From the NCBI RefSeq assembly GCF_024298765.1, contig NZ_CP101213.1: a stretch of DNA of 62,297 nt, one strand, 5' to 3'. Below are positions 54,001 through 57,000 of this stretch, piece after piece. Origin of the DNA: Escherichia coli (GTDB lineage: Bacteria > Pseudomonadota > Gammaproteobacteria > Enterobacterales > Enterobacteriaceae). A program made the position numbers. Within the stretch, counting starts at the first letter, position 1; every line of letters begins with the position of its first letter.

Positions 54001-57000
54001 GCCGCTACCGATAGCTTTACCGTACAGACAAAGAACGGAAGCACACGGATCAGACGCATATACGGGGGCAGAGAGTGCGATAGCACTTGCGGCAACCATC
54101 GATAAAATGATGGATTTCATGGTGTTCCTCCATATTTCAGGCAAAAGAAAACCCGCACGAGGCGGGTATGAATGAGCCATTAAAGGCGGAATTGCACTCT
54201 TTGTTTAGTTTTGATATCTATCCTGGTGCATCATCAGAACAGAATACTGGAGTTAAGTTGGCTATGGCGCGGTTTTATTTAAATGTTCCGTTTGAAGAAA
54301 AGGATTTGGCTAAACAAAAAGGGGCGCAATGGGACCAAGAACAACGGAAATGGTTTGTTCCACAGGGGAAAAATCCAATTTATTTTATTCGGTGGATAAA
54401 AGAATTAAATGAACATGATTACAATGTTTTTTCGCAACGTTTTTATATTGCGGAAAGTCACCAGTCTTGTTGGCGCTGTAAGAAAACAACTCCTGTGTTT
54501 GGTATTTTTTTACCTCGTTGGTATAAGTATAGAGACGTTATTTGGGGAGTTGATCCTGCCGAATGGGAAGATTGTATATTAGATGAATGGTATGAAACAT
54601 CCTCCCCTAAGGGTATGGAGTATTTTGATTCAAAGAAAAATATGATTTATCGGTGGTTAACCAGTAGAGTATGGTGGACTGATTTAACGAAAATTGAAAT
54701 AATTTCAACCTCTGCTCTCTCAAGGATTAATGAGTATTCAAAATTATATTATCCATCCCATAGCAAAACAGCAAAAATGAAGTATTACGCGAATCATTGT
54801 TGTCATTGTAACGCAATGCAAGGTGATTTTATGATGTTTAATGAGCCAGGGGGCGTGTTCTTCCCTGTAACATATGAACAGGCGGAGAAAATAAGATTCC
54901 ATGAAGTCAATGAAACAATATTTGCCAAAGCAAGTTATAGTTTAATACCCGAAGCCGGAGGTTTCATAGATCTTTAAGCAAGATAAGACCCGCACGAGGC
55001 GGGTATTCTTTTAAATAGAATCACCTTGCTATAGGGAAGGTGATTCTATTGTAAACGTTCCATTAGATCCCGCACTGTCTTCTTGTACTCTTCTTTTTGT
55101 GCGTTGTTCTAATGCAGCACGAACATTAGAACTATTTATCAACTGGTCACTGCGTACAGCCAAAAAAAGCCCGCTTTGCGAGCTGTTTTTAATGAAGGAT
55201 TATTGCATCATATTTTTAAATGCTTTACCCGATTGCTCTTTTTGAATGGCTTCACGCGCATTTTCGCAGTTTTGACCAGACATATCCCCTTTGCTGCATT
55301 TTTCGACAACATCTTGGGCTTGTTCAAGATGTTCAGTGTAGTAACTGACATCATAAACTTTGTCTTCACAAGCAGCTAAAAGGAAGCATGACAAGATAGT
55401 TAAAGTGCTTATGAATTTTTTCATTCGAACACCTATTGCATCATTAATTTAAACTTTTCTCGACTAACAGCCTCTTGTCTTGCATTTTCAGACGCGATTA
55501 GCTGTCTCTCTGCAATATCATATTGCTTCAATTGTAGCTCCATTGTCAATTTTTCTGTATTCAATTGGTTAGATAAGTCAGCTTTTTTTTGCGGAGTATC
55601 TGCTGACGCGAACTCCTTCTGTAACGTGGTTAATCTCTTAGCCCTTTCCTGCATTTCATTGTTGAAATTTTCATAGAATTTGATCTTAGCCAGGATTGCA
55701 TCATATTTTTGTTGCGTCTCTGCAATGTTGCTTGATAAGTCATATTGCGATCGCAAAGAGCTAAGATCTGATTTTGCACTATTTGTTATTGTTGATAGAG
55801 AATCCTTCATATAGCTGGATGCGCTATCAAAGCCATTGCTGAAATCAGTGAAGCCTTCGAGTCTTTTCTTCTGTTCTTCAGCGTATCTTATGGTCTGTTC
55901 ATATTGTTGCTTGAGTTGCTCAAGCTGTCTTGCCGCTTCAGCGGCACGATTTAGCCCTTCTTCAACTGTTTTAGCTATCGCTGTAACGTCTACTACTGGA
56001 ATACCAGATGCAAAGATTGATGGTGATGTTACGGTAATTATTCCAGCAAAGAGAAATGATAATACTTTATCTTTCATGTTAATCACCCCGCTTTAAGTTT
56101 ACTTCCACGGTTTAATCCCTGAACTAATGCTGATGCAGAACGACTTCCTGCATTAAAGAATGGATTTGGCATTTTGCTGGCAAATCCATTGGTGAAAGAT
56201 CGGAGTCCTGATGCTCGCATAAAACCAGATGCAACCTTACCTCCAAAGCCATTAGCGGCTGATGTAAGGCCATTTATACCTACCCCACCTGTTAATGTAG
56301 AACAGAGTGTGCCAACTTGTTCTATAAGGAATATGGAAATAATAGTAATAAGGAAAAAGTAAACTACAATAGATAGTTTTATATCTCCATTAACAGGGAC
56401 AACTGATTCAACGAAACTAATTAAGAAACTAAATGATATGCTATAGAATAAATTTAACAGTATATAGTTGAGACAACTGCCGACCCATGCAGTAAACATA
56501 TTTCTGGTCGATGAAAATAGAGCGAAACAAATGAATAAAATGCCAGCGGAAAGAAGAATTCCAACCATGAAAGTTGATAGTGTCAAGAAAACAGTAGTGT
56601 AATAGATGAGAAGCATTCCGCCGATATAGCCAATCCCCCATACTAGATAAACCCCCATTTTCTCAGCAATTTGGAACTTTCCATAAATACTCATACTTGT
56701 ATCAAGGAAGTTGTTTAAATTCGTAGATAGAGCGTTCCACAAATTATCAACACTGGTTGCAGTTCCTGAACCTCCAGTAACAGCAGCAGAAAGGTCGGAG
56801 CCAGCGTGCATTACAAAAGGAATAACAAACTGGCTGTAATAAGGCGCTGAATAAGTGAATGCACCAACCAGGGCGAATGCACCGATATTCTTCGTCACCT
56901 CGTTCATAAGGATGTCACGTTGGGCATACGTGATTTCATATATTAGATAAATAACGTATAAGGCTATAGCCGCAAAAAATGTAGGAGATATTGCCTGTGC

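What the first reader, a model, noticed from the sequence alone, without database searches (positions are those of the whole stretch)
54148..55005. Oppositely oriented gene bracketed by identical hairpins inside the transfer region
The only plus-strand gene within a long minus-strand transfer cluster encodes a protein with a DUF5710-like N-terminus (YLNVPFEEKDLAKQKGAQWDQEQRKWFVP), of the kind found at the N-termini of TraC-primase and ArdC-type proteins, followed by Cys/His clusters. It is flanked on both sides by the same 20-bp hairpin (acccgcacgaggcgggta). This looks like a self-contained, insulated cassette and could be an accessory function such as ssDNA binding, anti-restriction or primase-related activity.
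Basis: partly seen in the sequence, partly recalled or inferred. Interest (0 to 1): 0.55.

Follow-up and report, generated by a model that had tools for sequence, protein, structure and literature searches.

The report
Accessory ygiA gene between terminator hairpins
The flagged gene is ygiA, a dispensable, sometimes-absent accessory gene of IncI2 (mcr-1-type) plasmids that encodes an uncharacterised zinc-binding protein sharing a small domain with plasmid primases, and its two "bracketing" hairpins are terminator-like elements that mark every module boundary in this recombination hot spot.

Summary
Identical hairpins (ACCCGCACGAGGCGGGTA) lie at 54151-54168 and 54988-55005, flanking the only plus-strand gene in about 40 kb of minus-strand transfer genes.

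The window is an mcr-1 IncI2 plasmid. The gene is most likely ygiA of R721/TP114, with its true start at 54264 (237 aa). It has an N-terminal DUF5710 domain (Pfam E=5e-17) and a C-terminal CxxC...CxxC domain. The structure model is confident (pLDDT 92) but has no solved or characterised relative.

It is not a primase or an ArdC: no Toprim, ArdC-N or protease domain is found.

The unit is accessory:
- It is present in 344 of 516 related plasmids.
- Where absent, the break falls exactly at the hairpin.
- It is frameshifted in some plasmids.
- The TP114 ygiA scored non-essential for maintenance and conjugation in a published transposon screen.
- It is under purifying selection (dN/dS 0.19).

The hairpins are not specific to this gene. 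The same hairpin joins every module between kikA and eex. The left copy belongs to an 80-bp repeat that also carries the kikA ribosome-binding site and first codons.

The protein family is large and sits on conjugative elements with no conserved partner gene. Its function is unknown. An ssDNA- or replisome-targeted establishment factor is my inference.

The parts
54264..54977 (+). ygiA coding sequence (237 aa plus stop), annotated 'DUF5710 domain-containing protein'. The 269-aa form starting at 54168 is an annotation artefact.
   Evidence: The start is supported by the homologue alignment and by L002, where the upstream ATG is lost. dN/dS is 0.19 against the 78%-identical IncI2 allele.
54270..54398 (+). 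DUF5710 domain (residues 3-45), with beta-alpha-beta-beta-alpha topology in the model.
   Evidence: Pfam PF18974, E=4.9e-17. All 56 aligned homologues match. Secondary structure comes from the AlphaFold2 model.
54426..54953 (+). C-terminal beta-rich domain with a predicted four-Cys zinc site (C69, C72, C179, C182) and the motif YxxNHCxxCxxxQGDF...EPGGxF.
54151..54168 (.). Left hairpin. On the - strand it is followed by TTTTCTTTT and then the kikA ribosome-binding site.
54089..54168 (-). 80-bp repeat unit: hairpin, T-tract, ribosome-binding site (GGAGGAACACC) and the first 10 codons of kikA. In other IncI2 plasmids the same unit is duplicated in front of yggB.
   Evidence: KikA and YggB share only their first 14 residues.
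54169..54263 (.). 95-bp region upstream of ygiA. It has only weak promoter-like matches on either strand; the best is TAAACA-N17-TTTAAT on the - strand, 54207 to 54179.
54988..55005 (.). Right hairpin, terminator-like on both strands. The + strand tail is ATTCTTTTAA, so it most likely ends the ygiA transcript.
55009..55055 (.). 19-nt inverted repeat (89% complementary, 9-nt spacer) directly right of the right hairpin. Function unknown.
   Evidence: I1. The 91-nt stretch 54975-55065, holding the right hairpin and this repeat, folds at -33.6 kcal/mol, z=-5.6.
55047..55098 (-). Relic of the 3' end of an EexN95/84-type exclusion gene.
   Evidence: 83% nucleotide identity to L003 eexN95. The last 17 codons are 71% identical.
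55168..55184 (-). Canonical terminator-like hairpin (7-bp stem followed by TTTTTTT) directly after eexN.
55200..55424 (-). eexN, an entry-exclusion lipoprotein (74-aa allele), convergent with ygiA.
   Evidence: NCBIfam Eex_IncN, 68 bits against a cut-off of 33. Annotation.
53821..54120 (-). kikA (TrbM/KikA family), the first gene downstream of the left hairpin on the - strand.

Best explanation
The unit is ygiA, a single-gene accessory module in the recombination hot spot between kikA and the entry-exclusion gene eexN of IncI2 plasmids.

Shown:
- The two hairpins are copies of a short terminator-like stem-loop found at every module junction in this hot spot.
- On the minus strand, the left copy heads an 80-bp unit (hairpin, T-tract, ribosome-binding site, first codons) that is repeated in front of kikA and yggB.
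- The right copy is terminator-like on both strands and lies between the convergent ygiA and eex genes.
- The gene is dispensable in TP114 but under purifying selection.
- The protein has no catalytic primase or ArdC domain.

Inferred:
- Homologous recombination between these repeats adds or removes modules. The window's kikA|ygiA|eexN74 layout would then be a derivative that has lost yggB and the RelE toxin-antitoxin pair between two 80-bp repeats.
- YgiA uses its DUF5710 domain to dock onto single-stranded DNA or the SSB/replisome complex. This follows from the enzymes the same module is fused to: TraC-type primases, ArdC-like polyvalent proteins, Rep_3 initiators, an ExoVII large subunit and DEDDh exonucleases.
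- Its zinc-binding C-terminal domain then acts there as a non-essential establishment or conflict factor. Such a benefit would only show in hosts or competitions that are not reproduced in standard laboratory matings.
For: Identity and context. The window is an IncI2 mcr-1 plasmid, 100% identical over this region to many records.

Module mosaic. Eight compared IncI2 loci combine four kinds of module: RelE toxin-antitoxin, yggB, ygiA and eexN alleles of 74, 78, 84 or 95+84 aa. The same hairpin sits at each junction. Breakpoints coincide with the hairpin or the 80-bp repeat.

Frequencies. ygiA is in 344 of 516 related plasmids. The toxin-antitoxin plus yggB stretch is complete in 243.

Terminator-like character.

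Dispensability. ygiA carries '-' in all four essentiality columns of the TP114 screen. It is frameshifted in L005.

Selection. dN/dS is 0.19.

Protein family. There are 2,595 cluster representatives at E<=1e-3 and 671 at E<=1e-10. At least 562 loci occur in species-representative genomes. The four Cys are conserved.

DUF5710 fusion partners. TraC/ArdC-type proteins, Rep_3 (PMC11233732), ExoVII large subunit and DEDDh exonucleases.

Genomic setting of homologues. They lie on conjugative elements next to coupling proteins, relaxases, ArdC, topoisomerases, ssb or antirestriction genes.
Against: - No biochemical or phenotypic datum exists for any family member. DNA or SSB binding by DUF5710 is inferred only from its fusion partners.
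- ygiA is not in the IncI2 leading region. By my reading of the annotation, oriT is near 13.5-13.9 kb.
- No convincing sigma-70 promoter for ygiA was found.
- If the left hairpin terminated efficiently it would block kikA-pil expression, so it must be leaky or serve another role such as mRNA stabilisation.
- Hairpin function was not measured.
- The direction of evolution (deletion versus insertion) is inferred from only eight loci.
Confidence: 0.5

Rival explanations
1. YgiA is functionally coupled to entry exclusion, for example as a cytoplasmic second layer or partner of the Eex lipoprotein that acts on incoming DNA from related plasmids.
For: The gene lies next to an exclusion gene in unrelated backbones:
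- IncI2 eexN.
- MPF_I plasmids, between traY/excA and trbA.
- Campylobacter lari pCL2100, next to an EexN lipoprotein.
- A lipoprotein-plus-YgiA-like gene pair shared between an IncF and an IncI-gamma plasmid.
Against: - The pattern is not family-wide. In 80 loci from species genomes only one had an adjacent lipoprotein gene, against a background of 9 in 696 ORFs.
- No neighbour family is conserved across the 36 sequence groups.
- The IncF, IncP-like and ICE contexts lack an adjacent exclusion gene.
- Exclusion loci are themselves recombination hot spots, which explains co-location without a functional link.
Confidence: 0.1
2. YgiA is a substrate of the conjugative type IV secretion system. 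DUF5710 would act as the recognition module that gets TraC-type primases and polyvalent proteins exported, and YgiA would act inside the recipient.
For: - DUF5710 occurs in TraC1/TraC2-type and ArdC-type proteins. Their prototypes are transferred during conjugation (PMC5512222).
- YgiA-type genes sit inside or beside secretion-system and coupling-protein clusters.
Against: - DUF5710 is also fused to Rep_3 replication initiators and to an ExoVII large subunit.
- It also occurs in 4-5 tandem copies in signal-peptide-bearing proteins with a predicted exonuclease domain that look eukaryotic or organellar. None of these is an obvious secretion substrate.
- No translocation signal was tested.
Confidence: 0.1
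3. The unit is a hairpin-specific mobile cassette, moved by single-strand or site-specific recombination in the manner of integron attC sites or IS200/IS605 elements.
For: Presence and absence are precise, with boundaries at the hairpins. Conjugative DNA also passes through a single-stranded stage.
Against: - The hairpin is only 17 nt and lacks attC-type core sites.
- No integron integrase or Y1 transposase lies nearby. The only recombinase annotated in the plasmid is the site-specific integrase next to the shufflon.
- The same hairpin bounds every neighbouring module, including backbone genes.
- The left repeat offers 80 bp of ordinary homology.
Confidence: 0.07
4. The gene matters mainly in cis: convergent ygiA transcription and its hairpins tune read-through from the virB6-virB5-eex unit into kikA-pil.
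For: - The orientation is opposite to the surrounding genes.
- Terminator-like hairpins lie on both sides.
- kikA has no room for its own promoter downstream of the left hairpin.
Against: - dN/dS of 0.19 shows selection on the protein.
- Homologues elsewhere are co-oriented with their neighbours.
- Transposon insertions in TP114 ygiA did not affect conjugation in vitro or in the gut, although kikA and pilL are needed in the gut.
Confidence: 0.06
5. It is a DNA primase, as several database records name it.
For: Source annotations read 'DNA primase' or 'DNA primase TraC'.
Against: Only the 45-residue DUF5710 domain is shared with TraC. No Toprim, AEP or zinc-binding primase domain is found. The name is an over-transfer from a partial match.
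Confidence: 0.02

Closest known systems
ygiA of IncI2 plasmids R721 and TP114
   Same: Taken to be the same gene: 98.7% protein identity in R721, NC_002525.1. The TP114 gene order trbJ - eex - ygiA - yggB - kikA matches.
   Different: Nothing beyond allele and neighbours. The window lacks yggB and the RelE toxin-antitoxin pair. No function has been published. I did not compare the TP114 sequence directly.
DUF5710 (PF18974) modules of TraC-type Toprim primases and ArdC-like polyvalent proteins of conjugative elements
   Same: The 45-residue N-terminal domain is shared: 48-56% identity to the DUF5710 stretch of IncP-type traC1/traC2 and zincin-like (ArdC-type) proteins, with a Pfam match.
   Different: YgiA has no Toprim, ArdC-N or metalloprotease domain. 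It carries one DUF5710 copy at its N-terminus, whereas in those proteins the copies are internal and tandem. Its C-terminal four-Cys domain is absent from them.
Intrinsic (rho-independent) terminators, including bidirectional ones between convergent genes
   Same: A GC-rich 6-bp stem with a 5-nt loop and T-rich tails on the left copy (- strand) and the right copy (+ strand). The right copy lies between convergent genes.
   Different: The identical sequence is reused at every junction of a module mosaic. The left copy is fused to a ribosome-binding site and the first codons of the next gene, so it cannot be a fully efficient terminator.
Entry-exclusion loci of VirB-type plasmids (EexN family lipoproteins such as Eex of IncN plasmids)
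   Same: ygiA sits beside an EexN-family gene in a region with highly diverged exclusion alleles, 38-80% identical to one another.
   Different: YgiA has no signal peptide or lipobox and is not an Eex homologue. The adjacency is not family-wide.
Integron gene cassettes bounded by attC hairpins
   Same: Single promoter-poor genes bounded by a repeated palindromic element, with presence/absence polymorphism.
   Different: The hairpin is 17 nt and has no attC core sites. No integron integrase is present. The neighbouring units share 80 bp of plain homology.

Membership tests
Pfam DUF5710 (PF18974) | Significant match to the family HMM over its full length. | tested here: met
   E=4.9e-17, model positions 1-43 of 44, residues 3-45. 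All 56 aligned homologues match.
YgiA-type proteins (DUF5710 plus four-Cys domain, about 200-240 aa) | N-terminal DUF5710, followed by CxxC ... NHCxxC...QGD...EPGG with conserved Cys. | tested here: met
   Alignment A1: C72, C179 and C182 are invariant. C69, Y174, N177, H178, G187, D188 and E194 are conserved in at least 90% of sequences. Full-length hits.
DnaG/TraC-type (Toprim) primases | A Toprim catalytic domain, or an AEP/Primpol domain. | tested here: not met
   Pfam finds only DUF5710. NCBIfam gives no hit. At 237 aa the protein is too short to hold a Toprim domain as well as the two domains found.
ArdC-type antirestriction proteins | An ArdC-N ssDNA-binding domain and a C-terminal MPTase metalloprotease domain. 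| tested here: not met
   No PF08401 or PF18818 match in YgiA. Both are detected by the same type of search in the neighbouring 1,448-aa protein of L014.
Known anti-phage defence system components (PADLOC) | A match to any PADLOC model. | tested here: not met
   0 families at E<=0.1.
Intrinsic terminators | A GC-rich stem-loop followed by a T-run. | tested here: met
   The consensus scan lists the left copy on the - strand and the right copy on both strands. It found 4 sites against 1.6 expected.
Intrinsic terminators | Transcripts actually end at the site. | not testable with these tools
   No transcript data are available. This needs Term-seq or 3' RACE.
Integron cassette / attC | An attC site of about 57-141 bp with R''/L''-L'/R' cores, and an IntI integrase with attI. 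| tested here: not met
   The repeat is a 17-nt hairpin with at most 34 nt of similarity on the ygiA-distal side. The plasmid annotation shows no integron integrase, only one site-specific integrase next to the shufflon.
Essential IncI2 transfer genes | Required for conjugation, and universally present in IncI2 plasmids. | tested here: not met
   Present in 344 of 516 plasmids. Non-essential in all four conditions of the TP114 transposon screen.

The most novel reading that the evidence does not exclude
YgiA-type proteins are a large, structurally novel, zinc-binding family specific to conjugative elements. In this reading they use DUF5710 to dock onto the SSB-coated single-stranded transfer intermediate and act as an unrecognised anti-defence, establishment or plasmid-competition (exclusion-like) factor. 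DUF5710 itself would then be a general ssDNA/SSB-targeting module shared by plasmid primases, initiators and exonucleases.
Probability: 0.2. Interest if true: 0.65.

Novelty: new member of a known kind. Interest (0 to 1): 0.33.

Why it matters
IncI2 plasmids are a main vehicle of the colistin-resistance gene mcr-1. Knowing which backbone genes are dispensable and which regions recombine helps to interpret their evolution.

ygiA itself is already catalogued and non-essential, so the local finding is ordinary. The wider value has two parts.

First, its protein family is large: at least 671 cluster representatives at E<=1e-10 and at least 562 loci in species-representative genomes. It is confidently modelled, has no characterised relative, and occurs on conjugative elements. 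That makes it a reasonable candidate for screens for establishment or anti-defence functions. It is also a way into the function of the DUF5710 module found in plasmid primases.

Second, the repeated unit of hairpin plus ribosome-binding site gives a simple, testable mechanism for module shuffling around the entry-exclusion gene.

Tried and rejected
- Sequence searches against solved structures, with the single protein and with the profile, gave only chance hits to TPPP proteins.
- NCBIfam and PADLOC gave no hits, and PHROGs matched only the DUF5710 stretch in families of unknown function.
- Rfam found nothing meaningful in 53500-55700.
- Literature searches for DUF5710, PF18974, ygiA+R721 and IncI2 entry exclusion found no functional study. 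The supplements of the leading-region anti-defence paper do not mention DUF5710.
- I pursued a link between YgiA-type genes and adjacent lipoprotein or exclusion genes, which looked promising in plasmid contexts. It failed to generalise in 80 genome loci, and no conserved neighbour family emerged. That analysis used crude ORF calling, and about half of the loci were from Collinsella.
- I considered the hairpin as a shufflon or attC-like recombination site and rejected it on sequence grounds (from reading the sequence, not a formal test).
A 10-sequence alignment worked.
- Promoter scans found no convincing promoter for ygiA or kikA.
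Full report
**What is there**

The sequence ACCCGCACGAGGCGGGTA occurs exactly twice in the window, at 54151-54168 and 54988-55005. No other copy exists within three mismatches, and none of 100 shuffles reached two matches. The similarity extends leftward to 34 nt at 85% identity. Each copy folds as a 6-bp stem with a 5-nt loop. Folding energy in context is -11 to -15 kcal/mol, with z-scores of -2.6 to -4.0.

Between the copies lies one plus-strand ORF, 54168-54977. 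Every other ORF of 130 aa or more between 21.2 and 61.2 kb is on the minus strand or nested in a minus-strand gene.

**Where the window comes from**

The region is 100% identical to many IncI2 plasmids of about 60 kb from Escherichia, Salmonella and relatives. One example is pMCR4D31-3: IncI2, MOBP, MPF_T, carrying mcr-1 at 18730-20355.

The gene lies between kikA (TrbM/KikA family, 53821-54120, minus strand) and an EexN-family entry-exclusion lipoprotein (55200-55424, minus strand). The EexN call scores 68 bits against a cut-off of 33. Beyond that come the virB5-like and virB6-like genes.

The published annotation of the IncI2 plasmid TP114 gives the order trbJ(virB5) - TP114-005 - ygiA - yggB - kikA - pilL. 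There ygiA is labelled 'DNA primase' by BLASTx (PMC7508951). R721 carries the same protein at 98.7% identity. I therefore equate the gene with ygiA. I did not compare the TP114 sequence directly, so that step rests on gene order and annotation.

**The gene and its protein**

The true start is most likely the ATG at 54264, giving 237 aa.
- All homologues begin at this point with M-x-R-x-x-L-x-V-P-F.
- In plasmid L002 the upstream ATG, which overlaps the hairpin, is destroyed, and the gene is annotated as 237 aa.

Residues 3-45 match Pfam DUF5710 (E=4.9e-17). No other Pfam, NCBIfam or PADLOC family matches.

An exhaustive search of 1.84 billion cluster representatives found 2,595 hits at E<=1e-3 and 671 at E<=1e-10. 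Many are proteins of 200-240 aa that match over both halves of the query.

In an alignment of 56 such proteins, C72, C179 and C182 are invariant. C69, Y174, N177, H178, G187, D188 and E194 are conserved in at least 90%. The pattern is a CxxC...CxxC zinc site with the motif YxxNHCxxCxxxQGDF...EPGGxF.

AlphaFold2 run on this alignment gives a confident model (mean pLDDT 92, pTM 0.87). It shows a small beta-alpha-beta-beta-alpha DUF5710 domain and a beta-rich C-terminal domain.

No solved structure resembles it:
- Foldseek against the PDB: best E=0.13.
- Sequence and profile searches of the PDB: chance hits only.
- AFDB50: only uncharacterised family members, often mislabelled 'DNA primase TraC'.

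The 'primase' name is an over-transfer from the 45-residue DUF5710 match. The protein has no Toprim or AEP domain, and no ArdC-N or metalloprotease domain.

**The unit is accessory**

Of 516 plasmid records that match the 1,651-bp kikA-to-eex query, 344 contain the hairpin-to-hairpin interior. Of these, 234 are at 95% identity or more. Another 109 carry a second allele at about 86% nucleotide and 78% protein identity.

In the plasmids that lack it, the match to the window stops at query position 368. That is window position 54167, exactly at the end of the left hairpin. Two such plasmids, L003 and L008, run from one hairpin directly into an eexN gene.

In L005 the gene is split by a frameshift. 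In several records it is not annotated as a CDS.

In the TP114 transposon-insertion screen, ygiA is 'soft-core' and scored non-essential for maintenance, for in vitro conjugation and for conjugation in the mouse gut.

The gene is nevertheless maintained as a protein. dN/dS between the two IncI2 alleles is 0.19 (dS 0.65, dN 0.12 over 230 codons).

**What the hairpins are**

Eight IncI2 loci show that the kikA-eex interval is a mosaic of four kinds of module:
- a RelE-family toxin-antitoxin pair;
- yggB, a 211-aa predicted lipoprotein;
- ygiA;
- eexN alleles of 74, 78, 84 or 95+84 aa, which are only 38-80% identical to one another.

The same hairpin sits at each junction.

The left copy is part of an 80-bp unit, window 54089-54168. 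Read on the minus strand, it consists of the hairpin, TTTTCTTTT, the ribosome-binding site GGAGGAACACC and the first 10 codons of kikA. The same unit is repeated in front of yggB. KikA and YggB share only their first 14 residues.

Recombination between two such direct repeats would remove yggB, with or without the toxin-antitoxin pair, and give exactly the window's layout. About a quarter of the sampled rows have that layout, and 243 records keep both modules. This step is inferred, not shown.

The right copy is terminator-like on both strands and lies between the convergent ygiA and eex genes. In other plasmids it directly follows the eexN stop. In the window it is separated from eexN74 by three features:
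- a relic of the last 17 codons of an EexN95/84-type gene, 55047-55098;
- a 19-nt inverted repeat, 55009-55055;
- eexN74's own canonical terminator, 55184-55168.

So the hairpins are shared terminator-like elements of the hot spot and its recombination joints. They are not a private insulator of ygiA.

kikA has no room for a promoter downstream of the left hairpin, so that hairpin must be leaky or act in mRNA processing or stability. This point is unresolved. No convincing sigma-70 promoter was found for either ygiA or kikA. No Rfam family matches the region.

**What the protein may do**

DUF5710 is a modular domain found in several DNA-handling proteins.
- It occurs, often in 3-8 tandem copies, in TraC-type Toprim primases that also carry ArdC-N and MPTase domains.
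- It is fused to Rep_3 initiators of Acinetobacter plasmids (PMC11233732).
- It is fused to an ExoVII large subunit.
- It is fused to DEDDh 3'-5' exonucleases.
- It occurs in 4-5 tandem copies in proteins with a signal peptide and a C-terminal region I read as a DEDDh-type exonuclease; these look eukaryotic or organellar.

These partners act on or at single-stranded DNA or replication intermediates. I therefore infer that DUF5710 targets proteins to ssDNA or to the SSB/replisome complex.

YgiA-type genes are found in Proteobacteria, Bacteroidota, Actinomycetota (Collinsella), Clostridia and others, with at least 562 loci in species-representative genomes. In the annotated or Pfam-labelled contexts I examined they lie on conjugative or mobilisable elements:
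- beside coupling proteins and relaxases;
- beside ArdC and topoisomerases;
- at the distal end of an IncF leading region, near antirestriction, DUF3560 and methyltransferase genes;
- as a lone opposite-strand gene inside an ICE-type secretion cluster;
- near ssb and an exonuclease.

Together with its dispensability in laboratory matings, this fits a conditional establishment or conflict factor. That remains an inference. I put about 0.5 on the overall picture and less on the molecular role.

**A lead that did not hold**

YgiA-type genes lie next to exclusion genes or small lipoproteins in several plasmid backbones:
- IncI2;
- three MPF_I plasmids, between traY/excA and trbA;
- C. lari pCL2100;
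- a lipoprotein-plus-YgiA pair shared by an IncF and an IncI-gamma plasmid.

In 80 loci from species genomes, only one had an adjacent lipoprotein gene, against a background of 9 in 696 ORFs. Clustering of neighbours over 36 sequence groups found no conserved partner. The best recurrent neighbours were a VirD4-like coupling protein in 4 groups and a DUF5710-bearing exonuclease in 3.

The co-location is better explained by exclusion loci being permissive, fast-evolving hot spots. The test was crude, however: ORFs were called mechanically and half of the loci were from Collinsella.

**Verdict**

The feature is an already catalogued, non-essential accessory gene of unknown function, bracketed by reused terminator-like hairpins. 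Local interest is modest. The uncharacterised and structurally novel YgiA family, and the DUF5710 module itself, are the parts worth experimental follow-up.

Noticed in passing
window 55009-55055: A 19-nt inverted repeat (TTTTAAATAGAATCACCTT / AAGGTGATTCTATTGTAAA, 89% complementary, 9-nt spacer) lies directly right of the right hairpin. It has no T-run, so it is not an obvious terminator. It could be a protein-binding site. It was also matched in the eexN74-type plasmids L002 and L005.
   Followed up: partly
window 55047-55098 (- strand): A relic of the 3' end of an EexN95/84-type exclusion gene lies between the right hairpin and eexN74. This indicates that the exclusion allele was replaced by recombination. 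Eex alleles across IncI2 plasmids are only 38-80% identical.
   Followed up: yes
window 55500-57500 versus L003, L004, L007 and L008: The virB5/virB6 side of the hot spot is only 83-92% identical between plasmids, whereas the kikA/pilL side is about 99% identical. This suggests a recombination boundary at the exclusion locus, or co-diversification of eex with virB5/virB6.
   Followed up: no
window 24754-26084: An IS2 element (TnpA and TnpB matches above the curated cut-offs) is inserted in the topoisomerase III region. In the otherwise near-identical plasmid CP085520.1 this position has no insertion, and an 81%-identical copy lies at a different position.
   Followed up: partly
window 18730-21200: mcr-1.1 and the adjacent PAP2-family gene lie directly downstream of a 1,437-aa relaxase gene (14196-18509). 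Coordinates are from the identical record.
   Followed up: no
L002 1889-3146; L003 5389-6646: Many IncI2 plasmids carry a RelE-family toxin-antitoxin pair plus yggB between kikA and ygiA or eex. yggB is a 211-aa predicted lipoprotein whose ribosome-binding site and first 14 residues duplicate those of kikA. The window lacks both modules.
   Followed up: partly
proteins P0013 and P0024: These proteins have an N-terminal signal- or transit-like peptide, 4-5 tandem DUF5710 repeats separated by low-complexity linkers, and a C-terminal region that I read as a DEDDh-type exonuclease. They look eukaryotic or organellar. Their origin is unknown.
   Followed up: no
L026 164-1921; L053 4954-5883; L023 3883-4830: DUF5710 is fused to an ExoVII large subunit (L026) and to DEDDh 3'-5' exonucleases (L053, L023). 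These genes are encoded close to YgiA-type genes on conjugative elements.
   Followed up: partly
L020 5616-5963 and L033 5606-5962: A lipoprotein gene of about 115 aa (79% identical between the two plasmids) lies immediately upstream of the YgiA-type gene in both an IncF and an IncI-gamma/K1 plasmid. This suggests a two-gene module that moves between backbones.
   Followed up: partly
L031 (Klebsiella pINF177.2) 6001-6687: A YgiA-type gene is again the only opposite-strand gene inside a conjugative secretion-system gene cluster (ICE-type TIGR037xx genes). This mirrors the IncI2 arrangement.
   Followed up: no
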